DNA of 64,000 nucleotides, taken from assembly GCF_003063625.1 (NCBI RefSeq), contig NZ_CP026604.1:2704065-2768064 (forward strand), given 5' to 3'. The DNA is from Saccharobesus litoralis (GTDB taxonomy: Bacteria; Pseudomonadota; Gammaproteobacteria; Enterobacterales; Alteromonadaceae). The position numbers were made by a program, and so were the translations under genes. The notes beneath the pieces were generated by a model. That model was not told the DNA's origin, made no database searches, and saw only the letters and a list, made by a program, of their open reading frames with translations. Below, piece by piece: positions 1 through 49,987 of the stretch. The first letter of the stretch is position 1; each line of letters opens with the position of its first letter.

Positions 1-249
1 TAGTCTTCTCGCTCAGGTCTTATGGTTCATTGTCAGCGCTTACTCTCGACTTTGCTTACATGGATGTAAGTACTTAGGTTTCGTCTGGAACAGGAAACCT
101 GCGGCTCCTGCGTCGTCCTACTACCTAAATCCACTTTCTTCCATTAAGAGCGGCAGCCCCAATCACATAGTAGAGCATATGCTCATGGGGTCTCGAAGCT
201 TGCCTACATGGATGTAGGTACTTAGGTTTCGTCTGGAACTAGAAACCTG
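1..249. mobile_element. MITE-like repeat element, copy A left part. The window starts at element nt 3. It is the inverted orientation of copy B and is interrupted by the IS110-like insertion.
   Basis: About 90% identity to the reverse complement of 7632-7988. Same terminal TAGTC and hairpin modules. Similarity stops at ...gaaacctg (249). Confidence 0.8.
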
Positions 250-333
250 ATAATCCTCTAAGACAGCCTCGCAGTATCGTCTGACTTTCAGTACTAAACT
301 GAAAGGTGAAGCTAAAACTTTACCGGAGGCTGT

Positions 334-1341
334 ATGAAATATTTTAGCGCAATTGATCTACATTCGAATAATTCTTATCTGGTTATTTCTGATGAAGAGG
401 ATCGCAGTATGGTTGAAAAACGTCTAGCAAATGATCTTAAGTTGATATTAAGGGAATTGGAACCATTCAAGTCTGATATCCAAGGGATCGCTGTTGAATC
501 AACTTATAACTGGTATTGGTTAGTTGATGGGTTAATGGACGCCGGTTATACACTCAAACTTGTTAACACCTCAGCTATCCAGAGCTATTCAGGACTTAAA
601 TATACCAATGATGTCCATGATGCTCGATGGCTGGCCAAGTTACTTAGACTCGATATTTTACCAACAGGCTATATTTACCCGAAAGAGCAACGTAAAGTGC
701 GAGACATACTGCGTAAACGGGCAGGCCTTGTTCAACAACGTTCTTTAAATATTACCAGCTTCAAAAGCATGTTTGCGCGCCAGTTGGGGTTCACTATCAA
801 ATCCAATGATATCCATAAAAATATGGAGCAATTTTGTTTTGAAGATCCAATGCTAGAAGCTTGTTGTGCTCCGCACAAACAACTCTATAAAGTATTGACA
901 GAAGAAATTGATAAGCTCGAAAAGTTAGTTGGCTCACAACTCAAAGAGTCATCGATATACACCCAGCTACAAACAACACCGGGGATAGGAAAAATTCTAG
1001 CGGCTACGATTTCATTAGAAACAGGCAATATTAGTCGTTTCAATAAAGTCGGTAACTATGCTTCATATTGCCGTTGTGTTAAAAGTACAAGGGTTAGTAA
1101 TTATAAAATCAAAGGGAAAGGGAATGCCAAATGTGGCAACAAGTACTTATCTTGGGCTTTTTCCGAAGCAGCTCATTTTGCTATACGCCATTACAAGCCT
1201 ATAAAATGCTTTTACGATCGTAAGAAACGTAAAAGCAATGGCATAATTGCAATGAGAGCTGTAGCTCACAAGCTAGCGAGAGCGTGTTACTTTATTATGC
1301 GAGATAACGTAGAGTTTGATATGAAATTAGCTTTTGGTTGA
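334..1341 (+). CDS. IS110-family transposase (DEDD RuvC-like N-terminal domain)
   Basis: 335 aa. N-terminal ...AIDLHSN... (GIDxSK-like). Typical IS110 Tnp length and composition. RBS GGAGG upstream. Confidence 0.8.
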   Translation: MKYFSAIDLHSNNSYLVISDEEDRSMVEKRLANDLKLILRELEPFKSDIQGIAVESTYNWYWLVDGLMDAGYTLKLVNTSAIQSYSGLKYTNDVHDARWLAKLLRLDILPTGYIYPKEQRKVRDILRKRAGLVQQRSLNITSFKSMFARQLGFTIKSNDIHKNMEQFCFEDPMLEACCAPHKQLYKVLTEEIDKLEKLVGSQLKESSIYTQLQTTPGIGKILAATISLETGNISRFNKVGNYASYCRCVKSTRVSNYKIKGKGNAKCGNKYLSWAFSEAAHFAIRHYKPIKCFYDRKKRKSNGIIAMRAVAHKLARACYFIMRDNVEFDMKLAFG

Positions 1342-1719
1342 CGGAAAGTGGTGAGCCAGCTTTAGGGGGTGGATTTAAACCACTAAACCTGATTGGACAC
1401 CACTTTCCACTTTTTATCTAGCTTCGCCCAATAAGTAAGCCATAGAAGGGTTGGACAAAGAGCCACCAAACGCTGTGCGTTGATTGGATATTTATTGGTA
1501 CCGGAAAATTTTTGAGGCGAGAGCCAAGGCGATTACAGCAGTTAGGTAAAAGCCTAATTCAGATGGGTGACTGATGCGAAGTTTTTTCGTAATCAGCAGA
1601 GTAAAATTCGAGTCGAATAAGACTAGAGAAAAGACGGGACTTAGGTGTACTGTAAAGTTTGATAAACAAATTTATTGTGTTATTCGTCCATGAAAAACGC
1701 AATAAATTCGCTTGTGAAT

Positions 1720-1803
1720 TTGACACCGGCTGCTTAATGGGTGACACCGGCTGCTTAATGGGTGACACCGGCTGCTTAATGGGTGACACCGGCTGCTTAA
1801 TGG
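1720..1803. repeat. Four tandem copies of the 21-bp unit GTGACACCGGCTGCTTAATGG abutting the IS right end
   Basis: Period 21 seen directly. Ends 3 nt before the IS/target junction. Confidence 0.9.
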
Positions 1804-1806
1804 GTG

Positions 1807-1832
1807 CCCCTAAAACCTGATCGCTTTGACTA
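1807..1832. mobile_element. MITE copy A right arm (cccctaaaacctgatcgctttgacta), followed by TA
   Basis: Matches the other end of copy B (reverse complement). Confidence 0.75.
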
Positions 1833-1852
1833 TATATGGTTTTAAAGTTGGT

Positions 1853-2773
1853 TTAAAGTTGCTTGAGTATATTATCCAAACCCGCTTTGGATAAGGCAAC
1901 GGATTCCAATGGGGTTAAACCTTCAGGGTAGGTTTCCTGCTCAACGACAAACCATTCGGTTCCGCCGACAGCGATATTAGCTCGACTTAAATTCAACCAA
2001 TCAATCATGTCTTGACCTATTATGGCTGAGTAGTTTTGAGGATTCGATTTTGGCAATACTATTTTGTAGTGGGTGGTTTTAGTGCGCCCTGGGTAGCGTT
2101 TTACATACTCTATCGGGTCTTTACCTGCATATTGCACCCAGCCAACATCGAGTTGTAGAACTACATCATCAGTCGTATTGCGCGCTAAGTAGTCCCAATA
2201 AGTTGCTTCTTCATAGTCAGCAAACTCTTGAGCATGATTGTGATAACCAATTTGCATGCCATAGGGTTTCAGTTTTTTAGCCAGTGTGTTTAAGTCATCA
2301 GCGGCTGCTTGCCTATTTTTAGCTTGCCATACCCGTTCTTCCCAAGGGTCAATTAATGTTTTTACGCCTATGGTTTGGTAAAAATTAACGGTTTTTTCAA
2401 ACTGGCTACCTAACAATTGATCCATGCCAACATGAGCTGCACTGGCTTGTAAACCAAGTGAATCAAGAAAGGCTTTTAAACCTTGAGGATCTTGCTTAAA
2501 TCGACCAAATTCGCCAGCAAATTCAACACCTTGAAAACCCATGCTGGCTAACTGTGTTAACGTACCTTCAAAATCACGTTTAACGGCATCTTTGACTGAC
2601 CATAACTGCACACTGATTTTAGGCATAGTTGTGCTGTCATATTGTAAAGGCTTACTTGGCGTTACATGAGTTGATGATGAATGGGCAGGGTTTGAGTTAG
2701 ATTGGCAAGCACTCAGCAAGAGACCAATGCCAATTGTACAACTAGTGGCTAATAGTTTTAGAGAAGGTGACAT
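1853..2773 (-). CDS. Sugar phosphate isomerase/epimerase (xylose-isomerase-like TIM barrel) lipoprotein
   Basis: 306 aa. Lipoprotein signal ...LLLSAC. VQLWS...GFQGVEF pattern typical of the family. Confidence 0.55.
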   Translation of the reverse strand: MSPSLKLLATSCTIGIGLLLSACQSNSNPAHSSSTHVTPSKPLQYDSTTMPKISVQLWSVKDAVKRDFEGTLTQLASMGFQGVEFAGEFGRFKQDPQGLKAFLDSLGLQASAAHVGMDQLLGSQFEKTVNFYQTIGVKTLIDPWEERVWQAKNRQAAADDLNTLAKKLKPYGMQIGYHNHAQEFADYEEATYWDYLARNTTDDVVLQLDVGWVQYAGKDPIEYVKRYPGRTKTTHYKIVLPKSNPQNYSAIIGQDMIDWLNLSRANIAVGGTEWFVVEQETYPEGLTPLESVALSKAGLDNILKQL

Positions 2774-2922: not shown

Positions 2923-3675
2923 ATGGCTGATAATATTTTAGAGCAACAGGCAGCGCTGCTGCAGCAAGCGGGGCTAGAGCAAATTTTAGGTATGTATGAT
3001 TTGGTGCCCGATATTTTATTTTGGGTAAAAGATAATCGACATCGTTTTTTATTTGCTAACCAACTTTTACTCAGCCACGTAGGTTTAACTAGATTACAAG
3101 ACTTGTTGGGCAAAACGGATTTTGATTTTAGCCCTCACTATTTAGCTGCTCAATACGCCAAAGATGATGAAAAAGTGTTAGCAGGGCAAATCGTTAATGA
3201 GCGATTAGAAATGAATATGTGCCTAGATGGTGAGATAGCTTGGTATCTGACCTCGAAGCGGCCTATTATCAATTCTCAATCTGAAATTATCGGCTCTTAT
3301 GGCATTACACGCCATTTACAAAAAACTGCCAGTACTTTGTCAGGCATTAAAGCGGTTCAGCAGCCTGTTGATTACATACGTGAACATTTTCAATCTAATA
3401 TCACAATTGAGCAACTAGCTGAACTTGTACATGTTTCGGTTAGTGCGCTTGAGCGTCGCTTTAAAAAACATCTTAAAAAAACGCCGTGGCAGTTTTTAAC
3501 TGAAGTACGATTAGAGAATGCGCGGCGTTTGCTGGTAGAGACAGATTTACCAATCTCGCAAATTGGCTACGACAGTGGTTTTTCTGATCACAGTTATTTT
3601 GCCAAGCAATTTAAATTGTTTTTTGGTGAATTACCCTCGATATTTCGTGAGCAATACCAGAAAAAATTAGGCTAA
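2923..3675 (+). CDS. AraC-family transcriptional regulator with N-terminal sensor (PAS-like) domain
   Basis: C-terminal AraC dual HTH (…IEQLAELVHVSVSALERRFKK…LPISQIGYDSGFSDHSYFAKQFK…). Confidence 0.8.
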   Translation: MADNILEQQAALLQQAGLEQILGMYDLVPDILFWVKDNRHRFLFANQLLLSHVGLTRLQDLLGKTDFDFSPHYLAAQYAKDDEKVLAGQIVNERLEMNMCLDGEIAWYLTSKRPIINSQSEIIGSYGITRHLQKTASTLSGIKAVQQPVDYIREHFQSNITIEQLAELVHVSVSALERRFKKHLKKTPWQFLTEVRLENARRLLVETDLPISQIGYDSGFSDHSYFAKQFKLFFGELPSIFREQYQKKLG

Positions 3676-4286: not shown

Positions 4287-5408
4287 ATGAAGCACATAAC
4301 TCATCGTAAAACTGCACTTAGTATTTTGGTTTTAGCATCAGCCTCGCTAGCAGTTGGTTGCTCAAGTACGAGTGATAGCAAAGTCAATTCAACACCGGTA
4401 AAAAATAGTAGCGTTAGCGCATCTGTACCGGCAAGCAAGTTTGATTTAAGCCAGTGGAAGATCACTGTACCGTTAGATGAAGACAAGAATGGTAAAATTG
4501 ATGAGATTGACGTTAAAGCTATCCAATCTTACTCTCACCCAGATTATTTTTACCTAGATGATAATGGCCATATGGTATTTGCTACGCCAAACAAGGCGAC
4601 AACAACCAGCGGTTCGTCTAACACTCGTAGTGAGTTACGCCAAATGTTGCGTGGCGATAATACAAAAATTAAAACCAAAGGTCCTGGCAATAACTTTGTT
4701 TTAGCTAAGCACTCGTTAGCTAAACACTTTGCTGCCGTTGGCGGAAAAATGGAAGCCAGTTTAAAAGTTGATCATGTGGCTCGTCGCGCGGGTCATCCAG
4801 ATAAGCCACCAGCTTACTCTGTGGTTGTTGGCCAAATACACGCAGGTAAAGACAAAAACCTGTTAAAGAAAACCAACAACTTGTTTGGTTGGGGTAATGA
4901 GCCAATCAAGGTTTATTATAAAAAGTGGCCACATCACGACACAGGCTCGGTTTTTTGGAACTATGAGCGTAACTTAGCGAAAGACGATCCTAACCGTACT
5001 GATATCGCTTATCCGGTATGGGGTAATACATGGAAAAACCCAGCTGATCCAGGAGCTGAAGGTATAAAATTAGGTGAAGAATTTAGCTATGTGATCAATG
5101 TGCATGAAAATGTGATGCATTTGGAGTTTAGTGCTAAAGGTAAGCCTACCGTTAAGTATTCAATTGACCTGACCAATAATGTAGATGCATACGGTAAAGT
5201 TGATGAGTTAGACAACCCACATGGTTACACATTAGATTGGAATTACTTTAAAGCCGGTGCCTACAATCAATGTAGTACTAAAGATGCCCCTGGCGGTTGG
5301 TATACCGCTTGTCCAGGAACTGGTGACTGGCAAACAGATAAAGCCAATGGTGATTACACTCAGGTAACCTTTACTCGTTTAAAATTGAGTGAAAGTACAG
5401 CGCCTTAA
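4287..5408 (+). CDS. Polysaccharide lyase, PL7-like alginate lyase lipoprotein
   Basis: Lipoprotein signal LAVGCSS. PL7 signature blocks RSELRQM, QIHAG and YFKAGAYNQ. Confidence 0.65.
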   Translation: MKHITHRKTALSILVLASASLAVGCSSTSDSKVNSTPVKNSSVSASVPASKFDLSQWKITVPLDEDKNGKIDEIDVKAIQSYSHPDYFYLDDNGHMVFATPNKATTTSGSSNTRSELRQMLRGDNTKIKTKGPGNNFVLAKHSLAKHFAAVGGKMEASLKVDHVARRAGHPDKPPAYSVVVGQIHAGKDKNLLKKTNNLFGWGNEPIKVYYKKWPHHDTGSVFWNYERNLAKDDPNRTDIAYPVWGNTWKNPADPGAEGIKLGEEFSYVINVHENVMHLEFSAKGKPTVKYSIDLTNNVDAYGKVDELDNPHGYTLDWNYFKAGAYNQCSTKDAPGGWYTACPGTGDWQTDKANGDYTQVTFTRLKLSESTAP

Positions 5409-7588: not shown

Positions 7589-7631
7589 GACAAATTCTTT
7601 TCAAAATAATTGCGCGCATTATACGCCGAAA

Positions 7632-7988
7632 TATAGTCAAAGCGATCAGGTTTTAGGGGCAGGTTTCTAGTTCCAGACGAAACCTAAGTACTTACATCCA
7701 TGTAAGTAAAGCCGTCAAAGCTACCGCGTCCTGCTCTCGCCCCTCGCTTAAAGCGCCTACTTTTGGTACCTGCATCCATGCAGGCAAGCTTCGAGACCCC
7801 ATGAGCATATGCTCTACTATGTGATTGGGGCTGCCGCTCTAAATGGAAGAAAGTGGATTTAGGTAGTAGAACGACGCAGGAGCCACAGGTTTCCTGTTCC
7901 CGACGAAACCTAAGTACTTACATCCATGTAAGCAAAGTCGAGAGTAAGGGCTGACAATGAACCATAAGACTTGAGCGAGAAGACTATA
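7632..7988. mobile_element. MITE-like element copy B (357 bp, full length). TAGTC...GACTA termini flanked by TA on both sides. Contains two direct about 50-bp hairpin modules.
   Basis: Repeated at 1-249/1807-1832 (inverted, split) and 49801-49987 (short variant). Confidence 0.8.
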
Positions 7989-49800: not shown

Positions 49801-49987
49801 TATAGTCAAAGTGATCAGGTTTTAGGGGAAGCCGTCAAAGCTACCGCATCCGTGCTCTCGCTCCTTACCTACATCCATGTAGGCAAGCTTCGAGCCCCCA
49901 TGAGCATATGCTCTACTATGTGATTGGGGTGAGTAAGCGCTGACAATGAACCATAAGACCTGAGCGAGAAGACTATATAGCCGTGCG
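49801..49987. mobile_element. MITE-like element copy C (187-bp short variant lacking the hairpin modules). TA on both flanks.
   Basis: Colinear with the ends and core of copy B. Confidence 0.75.

What the first reader, a model, noticed from the sequence alone, without database searches (positions are those of the whole stretch)
250..1806. IS110/IS1111-like element inserted at an exact module boundary of a MITE, with a 465-bp 3' non-coding end carrying 4x21-bp tandem repeats (candidate bridge-RNA region)
Comparison with the intact MITE copy shows the insertion lies precisely between …GAAACCTG and CCCCTAAAACC… with no evident duplication. That is the REP/hairpin-adjacent, site-specific behaviour known for IS1111-type members. 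The transposase is flanked by only 84 bp upstream but 465 bp downstream. In the IS1111 subgroup the recently described bridge (seekRNA/bRNA) guide is encoded at the 3' end. The perfect 21-bp x4 array GTGACACCGGCTGCTTAATGG ends 3 nt from the right junction. This is unusual and could reflect donor-end structure or repeated recombination.
Basis: partly seen in the sequence, partly recalled or inferred. Interest (0 to 1): 0.62.

Follow-up and report, generated by a model that had tools for sequence, protein, structure and literature searches.

The report
RNA-guided insertion sequence with amplified end
This is one intact copy of an RNA-guided (IS110-family) insertion sequence sitting in a small repeat element; its 3' untranslated part encodes the guide RNA that matches the insertion site, and the odd 4x21-bp repeat is a tandem amplification of the element's own right tip, which recurs in many relatives.

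Summary
Window 250-1806 is a 1,557-bp IS110-family element: a 335-aa DEDD transposase gene, 84 bp upstream and 465 bp downstream of it. It interrupts a MITE-like repeat exactly where an intact copy (7649-7667, minus strand) reads GAAACCTG|CCCCTAAAACC. One correction: TG flanks both junctions, so it is a shared core dinucleotide.

The 3' non-coding region encodes a structured RNA of about 240 nt (1343-1583) that is conserved in distant relatives. On an alignment of 36 elements, 35 of 46 pairs show compensatory changes.

Its first hairpin is a target-binding loop. TTTAGGGG pairs with the right flank CCCCTAAA, and AAACC-TG-AT repeats the left junction. Across relatives, loop strands covary with their flanks (0 of 10,000 permutations reached the observed score). 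A second domain carries AUGGG-UG-A, the right tip plus core. No guide for the left tip was found.

The 21-bp array lies outside the RNA. Each unit runs from the TG inside a TTGACA -35 box to the terminal TG, so it holds the -35 box, the right subterminal repeat and the tip. The closest relatives have one unit. A capped metagenome scan found the same kind of array with 43 different unit sequences.

Verdict: a new member of a known kind, with a recurrent end-amplification.

The parts
1..249 (+). Left part of the interrupted MITE-like repeat (copy A; the window starts 2 nt inside it). It ends with the hairpin module GGTTTC...GAAACC followed by TG.
   Evidence: 96% match of 1-221 to 7766-7986 and 94% match of 200-249 to 7660-7709; sequence.
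243..249 (+). Left target half AAACC (243-247) plus core TG (248-249).
   Evidence: Identical to the loop strand AAACC-TG at 1385-1391. The TG maps to the same bases of the intact copy as 1805-1806.
250..1806 (+). The insertion sequence, 1,557 bp (boundaries ambiguous by the 2-nt core: 248-1804 to 250-1806).
   Evidence: Empty-site comparison. The same ends, TG|ATAATCC... and ...TTAATGGG|TG, occur in relatives L081-L090.
250..268 (+). Left tip ATAATCCTC (250-258) and left subterminal inverted repeat TAAGACAGCC (259-268). G249/1806 plus ATAAT forms the -10 half of a junction promoter.
   Evidence: Family consensus TG|ATAATCATCTAG. The two subterminal repeats covary with each other (top mutual-information pair).
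263..333 (+). Leader structure in which the left repeat ACAGCCTC pairs with GAGGCTGT, covering the ribosome-binding site just before the ATG.
   Evidence: MFE -29.6 kcal/mol, z -4.4, 0 of 200 shuffles as stable. The same complementarity is visible in relatives.
334..1341 (+). Transposase/recombinase gene, 335 aa, apparently intact.
   Evidence: Pfam and NCBIfam matches. All residues that are at least 90% conserved among 120 homologues are present, including IDLHS, VESTYNWYWLVDGL, DARWLA, PGIG, SYCRCV and S255-N. It aligns over 41-330 to IS621 transposase, PDB 8wt6.
1343..1408 (+). Target-binding hairpin of the guide RNA. Outer stem 1344-1352/1399-1407; CC 1356-1357 pairs with GG 1395-1396; inner stem 1369-1372/1380-1383.
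   Evidence: A covariance model built only from relatives of at most 57% protein identity scores 52.4 bits here, E 3e-11, and this is the only strong hit in 64 kb. All 9 outer-stem pairs show compensatory changes.
1361..1368 (+). Right-target guide TTTAGGGG, antisense to CCCCTAAA (1807-1814).
   Evidence: 8 of 8 Watson-Crick pairs at the position fixed by homology. Family test: observed 6.32 against 5.02 for permuted pairings, 0 of 10,000.
1385..1393 (+). Left-target guide AAACC, then core UG, then AU. This is the same sense as the left junction 243-251.
   Evidence: 9 of 9 identical to AAACCTGAT. Family test: observed 4.55 against 2.92, 0 of 10,000. The core changes to CG in this strand in relatives whose junctions read CG.
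1420..1583 (+). Second RNA domain closed by the long-range helix 1420-1427/1576-1583. It contains a second hairpin that resembles the target-binding one (1425-1501) and two small hairpins.
   Evidence: Helix 4 has 6 of 7 pairs with compensatory changes and helix 5 has 10 of 12. The covariance model gives 15.1 bits, E 0.18, at 1425-1501.
1563..1571 (+). Strand ATGGG-TG-AC: the same sense as the right tip plus core, then two bases that match the usual right flank in the family.
   Evidence: ATGGGTGA is invariant at this alignment position in 35 of 35 relatives, and it is the only consistent donor k-mer match.
1669..1708 (+). Conserved hairpin (arms 1669-1679 and 1698-1708) about 12 nt upstream of the -35 box. 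Role unknown.
   Evidence: Present in the fold. Compensatory changes in L081 and L090.
1720..1725 (+). TTGACA, the -35 half of the promoter that forms when the ends are joined in a circle (TTGACA, 17 nt, GATAAT).
   Evidence: TTGAC lies at a fixed distance from the tip throughout the family. The spacing was counted from the sequence. The promoter role is inferred from published IS110/IS1111 work.
1721..1806 (+). Tandem array of four identical 21-bp units TGACACCGGCTGCTTAATGGG plus the terminal TG. Each unit holds the -35 remnant, the right subterminal repeat GGCTGCTTA (1728-1736, 1749-1757, 1770-1778, 1791-1799) and the tip ATGGG.
   Evidence: Tandem Repeats Finder; pattern search. There is a single unit in L081-L090. 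Analogous arrays occur in metagenomes.
1807..1835 (+). Right part of the interrupted repeat. Right target half CCCCTAAA is at 1807-1814.
   Evidence: 100% match of 1805-1835 to 7631-7661.
7631..7986 (-). Intact copy of the MITE-like repeat, with an unoccupied and identical target AAACC-TG-CCCCTAAA within 7649-7667.
49801..49977 (-). Shorter copy of the repeat. It lacks the GGTTTC...GAAACCTG module, so it has no target.

Best explanation
Window 250-1806 is a single, apparently intact copy of an unnamed IS110-family insertion sequence in Saccharobesus litoralis. Its nearest named relative is ISGsu4, and it has the IS1111-type layout. It entered a MITE-like repeat by RNA-guided, conservative site-specific recombination at the core TG of AAACC-TG-CCCCTAAA.

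The 3' non-coding region encodes a guide (bridge/seek) RNA of about 240 nt. Its first hairpin holds the two target guides in one internal loop. The 5' strand UUUAGGGG pairs with the top strand of the right target half. The 3' strand AAACC-UG pairs with the bottom strand of the left half and the core. The next two bases (AU) match the first bases of the element, a 'handshake'-like extension. A second, multi-helix domain presents AUGGG-UG-AC, which matches the right tip plus core. How the left tip is read is not resolved.

Inferred, not shown: expression comes from a promoter that exists only in the excised circle (TTGACA in the right end, 17 nt, GATAAT across the junction). In the integrated copy no good promoter is found, and the ribosome-binding site is sequestered.

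The 4x21-bp array is not part of the RNA. It is a tandem amplification of the right terminus, and its unit runs exactly from the TG inside the -35 box to the terminal core TG. My preferred origin (about 55:35 over plain slippage) is a one-sided event of the element's own recombination machinery. In this event the right tip plus core is joined to the nearby TG-AC of the -35 box on a sister copy, and further expansion follows by unequal exchange. Such arrays are carried along when the element moves.
For: Shown:
- Transposase domains and intactness.
- Empty-site comparison and the shared TG.
- Ends shared with relatives of 72-78% identity, found at other sites.
- RNA structure on 36 elements: 93.8% of cells paired against 33-43% when partners are slid, and 35 of 46 pairs with compensatory changes.
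- A covariance model built without the window or its close relatives hits 1343-1408 at E 3e-11.
- In the window, 8 + 2 + 5 nt of guide matches its own flanks at homologous loop positions.
- Guide and flank covary across 34-38 distinct guides, with 0 of 10,000 permutations reaching the observed score for both halves. Examples are 9-10 bp matches in elements with unusual targets (L068, L066, L031, L023).
- The core changes to CG together in the loop strand and at the junctions.
- ATGGGTGA is invariant inside the RNA and at the tip.
- The subterminal repeats covary.

Array:
- The nearest relatives have a single unit.
- A capped metagenome scan found 68 exact arrays that start at the TTGAC TG. They have 43 different unit sequences, periods of 19-22 nt and 2-5 copies.
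- The same 2-unit end occurs next to 10 different flanks, of which 9 look like genomic insertion sites and one (in L142) is internal element sequence.
- There are no exact 12-40-nt tandem duplications elsewhere in 57 element bodies (86 kb). Each 3' region nevertheless offers about 9 other 4-nt repeats at the same spacing.
- There is no enrichment for longer microhomology.
- A 2026 preprint reports tandem repeat units at IS110 loci whose boundaries keep only the LD (right-tip) donor match.
Against: - No RNA or activity data exist. Only one copy of this exact element is known, since its protein cluster has one member. An identical empty target 5.8 kb away is unused.
- No guide for the left tip (ATAATCCTC) was found, so the donor-binding part is only half assigned.
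- The AUGGG strand is invariant, so it cannot be tested by covariation. The consensus fold partly pairs it (helix 8, no covariation).
- For the array, 63 of 68 metagenome arrays are followed by AC. Their units are therefore bounded by a 4-5-nt direct repeat, TGAC(C), which is also what slippage needs.
- Other duplications at right junctions (L037, and L159-like cases) are not bounded by TG. A single recombinase model therefore does not cover everything.
- The metagenome hits were selected by the search pattern, so the true frequency of arrays is unknown.
Confidence: 0.85

Rival explanations
1. The array arose purely by replication slippage or unequal crossing-over between short direct repeats (TGAC in the -35 box and TG-AC at a former right junction), with no role for the recombinase. 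It was then carried to the present site, or expanded there.
For: 93% of analogous arrays are bounded by TGAC(C) on both sides. Once two units exist, growth to four perfect copies is ordinary repeat instability. Other junction duplications (L037, L159-like) are not bounded by TG.
Against: At the present site the microhomology is only TG, because the right flank starts CCCC. There are no tandem duplications at about 9 equivalent 4-nt repeats per 3' region in 57 elements. There is no enrichment for TTGACC over TTGACA among arrays, p 0.48. Every unit boundary keeps the right tip plus core, as reported for IS110 tandem expansions.
Confidence: 0.35
2. The tandem array is itself part of, or the main determinant of, the guide RNA (four repeated guide modules).
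For: It lies in the long 3' non-coding region, where IS1111-type guides are encoded.
Against: The conserved, covarying structure ends at about 1583. The nearest relatives have one unit and the same RNA. The unit is the DNA terminus itself: -35 box, subterminal repeat and tip. The covariance model gives no hit in the array.
Confidence: 0.03
3. The element is a dead relic. The match between the loop and the flanks is just the frozen record of an old insertion, and the array is decay of a non-functional end.
For: Only a single copy is known. An identical empty target nearby is unused. No promoter was found in the integrated state.
Against: The ORF is intact with all conserved residues. The RNA scores well against the family model. 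The four units are 100% identical, so the array is recent. Arrayed ends in relatives occur at many different sites, so they are compatible with mobility. Silence of the integrated copy is the expected state for this family.
Confidence: 0.15

Closest known systems
IS1111-group insertion sequences with seekRNA (ISEc11, ISPa11, ISKpn4; Siddiquee et al. 2024, PMC11187229)
   Same: The left end is short and the non-coding region downstream of the transposase gene is long. Subterminal inverted repeats are present. The guide hairpin starts right after the stop codon. The strand that pairs the top DNA strand lies 5' of the strand that pairs the bottom strand. The target lies in a repeat element.
   Different: The transposase is only 23-25% identical to IS1111A and ISEc11. 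The conserved motif reads CRCV-S-x-x-SN instead of GL-P----S/T-G. The conserved RNA is larger (about 240 nt) and has a second loop that resembles the target-binding one.
ISGsu4 group (ISfinder IS110 family; bridge RNA predicted in the right end in Durrant et al. 2024, supplementary table)
   Same: It is the nearest named transposase: 31% identity over 334 aa, E 9e-49. It shares the SYCR(L/C)VK...KKG...GN..L.WAFSEAA signature, and its RNA is predicted on the right-end side.
   Different: Identity is low. I could not compare ISGsu4's ends, target or RNA. The window's clade has its own conserved ends, TG|ATAATCATCTAG and CTAATGGG|TG.
IS621 bridge RNA and recombinase (Durrant et al. 2024; Hiraizumi et al. 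2024; PDB 8wt6)
   Same: An internal loop reads both target halves around a 2-nt core, with the left half in the same sense and the right half antisense. A separate part of the RNA matches the donor tip plus core. Two-base extensions match the recombinant junctions. There is a junction promoter, and the proteins are alignable.
   Different: The RNA is encoded 3' rather than 5' of the gene. The order of the guide strands is reversed. The core is TG (or CG) rather than CT. The subterminal repeats are long. No guide for the second donor half was found.
Tandem repeat expansions at IS110 loci that keep only the LD donor match (bioRxiv 10.64898/2026.08.14.744561)
   Same: The repeat units lie adjacent to the element, and every boundary carries the right tip plus core but not the left tip.
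   Different: That study required units of at least 50 bp. Here the units are 19-22 bp and are defined exactly by the -35 TG and the terminal TG.

Membership tests
IS110 family (broad sense) | Transposase with an N-terminal DEDD/RuvC-like domain and the C-terminal 'Transposase_20' domain | tested here: met
   PF01548 E 1e-10 and PF02371 E 2e-13. NF033542 at 162 bits against a cut-off of 140.
IS110 family (broad sense) | Conserved serine in the C-terminal domain (the SG motif region) | tested here: met
   S255 aligns with the serine of ...YESG... in IS621. The motif is SN, not SG, and is at least 90% conserved in the clade. That this serine is catalytic rests on published IS621/Piv work, not on a test here.
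IS110 family (broad sense) | Site-specific insertion without terminal inverted repeats at the tips and without a multi-bp target duplication; a short core shared by donor and target | tested here: met
   In the empty-site comparison only TG is shared.
IS1111 group | Subterminal inverted repeats of 7-17 bp | tested here: met
   TAAGACAGCC (259-268) against GGCTGCTTA (1728-1736), 9 matches with one 1-nt indel. In the family the repeats are 11-12 bp and covary.
IS1111 group | Long non-coding region downstream of the transposase gene | tested here: met
   465 bp (402 bp with one repeat unit) against 84 bp upstream. It is 400-470 bp in most of the 46 relatives measured, with a full range of 340-618 bp.
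IS1111 group | Transposase related over its full length to IS1111, with the GL-P----S(T)G motif | tested here: not met
   23% identity to IS1111A and 25% to ISEc11, over partial length. The motif is CRCVKSTRVSN.
IS1111 group | Guide RNA with the top-strand match 5' of the bottom-strand match | tested here: met
   1361-1368 is antisense to the top strand of the right half. 1385-1391 is the same sense as the top strand of the left half.
Bridge RNA / seekRNA | Conserved structured non-coding RNA next to the recombinase gene | tested here: met
   Covariation counts and the covariance-model hit at E 3e-11. No Rfam family matches.
Bridge RNA / seekRNA | Loop strands complementary to both halves of the target around a core, changing with the target | tested here: met
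   Window: 8 + 2 + 5 nt. Family permutation tests: 0 of 10,000. Core covariation.
Bridge RNA / seekRNA | Second loop complementary to both halves of the donor (circle junction) | tested here: inconclusive
   The right tip plus core is matched (ATGGGTGA). No supported match to the left tip was found: k-mer scan and permutation p 0.08.
Bridge RNA / seekRNA | The RNA is made, binds the recombinase and is required for transposition | not testable with these tools
   Needs RNA-seq, pull-down and transposition assays.
MITE (the interrupted repeat) | Short, non-coding, multi-copy, with terminal inverted repeats | tested here: met
   Three copies of 177-356 bp in 64 kb, with ends TAGTC...GACTA flanked by TA. 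The family of the parent transposon was not determined.

The most novel reading that the evidence does not exclude
The -35 hexamer TTGAC in the right end doubles as a built-in half-site for the element's own RNA-guided recombinase: core TG plus the two 'handshake' bases AC of the conserved RNA strand AUGGG-UG-AC. One-sided strand exchange between the right tip and this half-site would then amplify the terminus in steps of exactly one promoter spacing (19-22 bp). The arrays would be a heritable, transposable scar of recombinase activity. They might also tune the strength of the junction promoter, because later units read GTGACA instead of TTGACA.
Probability: 0.3. Interest if true: 0.55.

Novelty: new member of a known kind. 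Interest (0 to 1): 0.38.

Why it matters
RNA-guided IS110/IS1111 recombinases are being developed as genome-editing tools. This locus adds three things.

1. A compact, apparently intact member of a large clade that is named in ISfinder only by the distant ISGsu4 group. The clade has clearly readable guide rules: 5 nt + TG + 5-10 nt.
2. A natural example of retargeting. The clade's usual site, AAGACC-TG-ACCCC, has become a host repeat, AAACC-TG-CCCCTAAA.
3. Evidence that the right terminus of these elements is a recurrent hot spot for short tandem amplification that travels with the element. This is relevant to how half-site reactions of such recombinases scar DNA.

For annotation of this genome, the finding is an ordinary insertion sequence in an intergenic repeat.

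Tried and rejected
- **Rfam.** A scan of 1-2400 at E <= 10 gave only chance hits to eukaryotic small RNAs.
- **Other places encoding the identical transposase.** None is on record, and the protein cluster has one member.
- **A guide for the left tip (ATAATCCTC).**
  - An exact 6-mer scan of 35 elements found only the sense ATGGGTGA and the TGATTR of the first loop. TGATTR is antisense to bases 2-7 of the left tip, but it is not compensated in the window's subgroup.
  - The single-stranded stretch GAnRRTTTT (around 1503-1511) resembles the core G plus the left tip in the same sense. It shows no significant covariation (p 0.08 with wobble, 0.49 without).
  - Part of that resemblance (CTGG changing to TTGAGG) is explained by an RNA helix.
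- **The second loop as a tracker of the left target half.** I rejected this. The apparent match is a small hairpin (AACGC-TGT-GCGTT) with a compensatory change in L081.
- **The MITE as a deletion derivative of the element, or as carrying a remnant of its right end** (TTTGACGGCTT against TTTGACACCGGCTGCTT). Local alignments are no better than shuffles, p 0.2-0.97.
- **Promoters for the integrated copy.** Only 9-of-12 matches at chance level.
- **Longer microhomology as a driver of arrays.** Not supported.
- **Literature on ISGsu4.** Nothing useful beyond the supplementary tables.
Full report
**What is there.** The window comes from Saccharobesus litoralis: the predicted protein is 100% identical to an NCBI entry from a 5.66-Mb contig. 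Positions 334-1341 (+) encode a 335-aa protein with the two domains of IS110-family transposases. It passes NCBI's curated model 'IS110 family RNA-guided transposase' at 162 bits against a cut-off of 140. The gene has 84 bp upstream and 465 bp downstream inside the element. A perfect 21-bp repeat of 4.1 copies occupies 1721-1806.

**Insertion site.** The window holds three copies of a modular, TA-flanked, MITE-like repeat:
- 1-249 plus 1807-1835, interrupted by the element;
- 7631-7986 on the minus strand, intact;
- 49801-49977 on the minus strand, shorter.

The intact copy reads ...CTAGAAACCTG|CCCCTAAAACC..., and this 19-mer occurs nowhere else in the window. Both 248-249 and 1805-1806 (TG) map to the same two bases of the intact copy. 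The element is therefore flanked by a 2-nt core, as expected for conservative IS110-type recombination, and not by a target duplication. The third copy joins other sequence directly to CCCCTAAAACC, so the insertion point is indeed a module boundary.

**Relatives.** The nearest sequences are metagenomic elements of 78% protein identity found with several different flanks (L081-L089) and a Catenovulum contig of 72% (L090). They share the ends TG|ATAATCCT(A/C)TAAGACAGCC and GGCT(G/T)CTTAATGGG|(T/C)G, but they have only one 21-bp unit.

About 590 further relatives at roughly 50% identity occur in many phyla. These relatives share the following:
- the left end TG|ATAATCATCTAG;
- the right end TTGAC, about 15 nt, then CTAATGGG|TG;
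- covarying subterminal inverted repeats of 11-12 bp;
- a preferred site close to CAAGACC-TG-ACCCC.

Among named elements the best match is ISGsu4, at 31% identity and E 9e-49. IS1111A, ISEc11 and IS621 are at 23-25%. The clade's version of the conserved 'SG' motif is SYCRCV-S-x-x-SN.

**The RNA.** Every relative has a conserved hairpin immediately after the stop codon. On an alignment of 36 right-end regions the consensus structure has 46 pairs in 8 helices. Of the cells, 93.8% form pairs, against 33-43% when partners are slid by 1-3 columns. Compensatory changes occur in 35 pairs, and none of 500 shuffles reached the observed values.

A covariance model of the first hairpin was built from 32 relatives of at most 57% protein identity, without the window or its close relatives. 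It hits 1343-1408 at 52.4 bits, E 3e-11. Its only other hit is a weak one (15 bits) at 1425-1501, and it hits nothing else in 64 kb. Rfam has no matching family. The structured part in the window spans 1343-1583.

**Guides.** In the first hairpin the 5' strand of the internal loop, TTTAGGGG (1361-1368), is the exact reverse complement of the right flank CCCCTAAA (1807-1814). The 3' strand, AAACC-TG-AT (1385-1393), repeats the left junction 243-251.

The loop positions are fixed by homology, so this can be tested across the family. With one locus per distinct guide, the loop strand fits its own flank better than permuted pairings do. For the right half the scores are 6.32 against 5.02 of 9 positions. 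For the left half they are 4.55 against 2.92 of 8. No permutation in 10,000 reached the observed score in either test.

Elements with unusual targets give the clearest cases: L068 GTGGGTTCG/CGAACCCAC (9 bp), L066 (10 bp with one wobble), L031 and L023 (8 bp each). In relatives whose junctions read CG instead of TG, the loop strand also reads CG. The order of the strands, with the top-strand match lying 5', is the IS1111-type order described by Siddiquee et al.. Compared with its 78% relative, the window element has changed both loop strands in step with its different target. This is a natural retargeting.

**Donor side.** The only part of the RNA region that consistently matches the circle junction is ATGGGTGA (window 1563-1570). 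It is invariant in 35 of 35 aligned relatives and equals the right tip ATGGG, the core TG and one further base. It has the same format as the left-target strand: five bases, then UG, then A and one more base, then UGG. It lies in a multi-helix domain closed by a well-supported long-range helix (1420-1427/1576-1583).

I found no supported guide for the left tip. The role of the second loop, which resembles the target-binding one (1425-1501), is unknown. The donor-binding part is therefore only half assigned.

**Expression (inferred).** Joining the ends gives TTGACA, 17 nt, then GATAAT across the junction. Both hexamers and their spacing are conserved in the family. Junction promoters are established for IS110/IS1111 elements. 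In the integrated state the scan finds only chance-level promoter matches. The left subterminal repeat also pairs with the ribosome-binding site (z -4.4).

**The array.** Each unit, TGACACCGGCTGCTTAATGGG, runs from the TG inside TTGACA (1720-1725) to the base before the next TG, and the array ends with the terminal core TG (1805-1806). Each unit thus carries the -35 remnant, the right subterminal repeat and the tip. The array lies about 135 nt beyond the conserved RNA and is absent from the nearest relatives.

Among these loci:
- 68 arrays are exact and start at the TG of a TTGAC box;
- they have 43 different unit sequences, periods of 19-22 nt and 2-5 copies;
- the same two-unit end (for example TGACCTGCCTGCTAATGGG x2) is followed by 10 different sequences, 9 of which look like genomic flanks, so arrayed ends are compatible with mobility;
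- at least 22 of the 62 testable matched loci (all array types) lie the expected distance downstream of a target-binding hairpin.

In an unselected set of 57 element bodies (86 kb) there is no other exact 12-40-nt tandem duplication. Each 3' region nevertheless contains about 9 other 4-nt direct repeats at the same spacing. Several right junctions in that set carry duplications (L037, L042, L045). The right end is therefore a hot spot.

Most arrays are bounded by TGAC on both sides, which slippage could use. However, arrays are not enriched for longer microhomology. The window's own right flank offers only TG. Every boundary also retains the right tip plus core, which matches a recent preprint on IS110 tandem expansions that keep 'LD-only' matches.

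I therefore favour a one-sided recombinase event for the first duplication. Plain slippage remains a serious rival. Growth from two to four perfect units needs only ordinary repeat instability.

**Verdict.** The element is a new, unnamed member of a known kind of RNA-guided insertion sequence. The right-end array is a recurrent feature of its clade rather than a local oddity.

Noticed in passing
L037:4440-4540 (relative of 49% protein identity; sister copies L029, L032, L036): An exact 2.0-copy, 21-bp tandem duplication, CTAATGGGTGACCCCTAACTC, straddles the right junction: the last 8 nt of the element (CTAATGGG), then the core TG, then 11 nt of flank. It has no microhomology at its borders. 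The three sister copies lack it. Similar 'tip plus flank' duplications occur in metagenome loci L103, L115, L126 and L159.
   Followed up: partly
L042 and L045 (two inverted copies of one element about 3 kb apart, Nitrospirales contig CBDFIV010000015): Each copy has a 12-bp tandem duplication that starts at the right core: TGACCCCGAGTC x2 and TGACCCCAGGCC x2. In L045 the joint AGGCC-TG-ACCCC is itself a perfect match to that element's guides. None of 70 left-junction windows has a duplication of 12 bp or more.
   Followed up: partly
L142 (metagenome contig Ga0209824_10007971), minus strand, about 4411-4667: A two-unit right-end array is fused to ACTGGTGCGG..., the sequence that normally follows the internal ATGGGTG of the RNA gene. 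About 165 nt further on there is a five-unit array. This looks like a duplication between the internal copy of the tip sequence and the true tip.
   Followed up: no
L082-L084, L086, L041, L080; also L003, L007, L009, L017, L019, L078: The first group has mixed cores, TG at the left junction and CG at the right. The second group has CG in the loop strand and CG at each junction that could be read (both junctions in L007, L009 and L078). Where the internal AUGGG-UG strand was found it stays UG, which would still pair by wobble.
   Followed up: partly
window 263-333: The left subterminal repeat pairs with the Shine-Dalgarno/start region of the transposase gene (z -4.4). The same pairing is possible in distant relatives. 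It probably blocks translation of read-through transcripts.
   Followed up: partly
window 1425-1501: A second loop with the same architecture as the target-binding hairpin (GAGCC, a 5' strand ending GGGT, an inner TGG...CCA stem, then ...TTGG). It is nested inside the long-range helix. Its conserved 5' strand, AAGGGGT in most relatives, would pair with ACCCCTT. Its partner is unknown.
   Followed up: partly
L052, L081, L088 (left flanks): Several relatives sit in the terminal inverted repeat of short palindromic elements (for example GGGGTCAGGCTTGCA...TGCAAGCCTG|ACCCC). This may explain why the site CAAGACC-TG-ACCCC is shared across phyla.
   Followed up: no
window 1-249, 1807-1835, 7631-7986, 49801-49977: The host repeat is modular. 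The module ACATGGATGTAAGTACTTAGGTTTCGTCTGGAAC(A/T)(G/A)GAAACCTG occurs twice in two copies and is absent from the third. Copy A also lacks about 84 nt that copy B has. The ends TAGTC...GACTA are flanked by TA.
   Followed up: partly
window 1669-1708: A conserved hairpin lies about 12 nt upstream of the -35 box, with compensatory changes in L081 and L090. It has no U-tract and the scan does not call it a terminator.
   Followed up: no
window 1853-2773 (-) and 2923-3675 (+): The neighbouring genes are a 306-aa secreted-looking protein whose 3' end faces the element's right end and, further on, a 250-aa AraC-type regulator. The element does not interrupt either gene.
   Followed up: no
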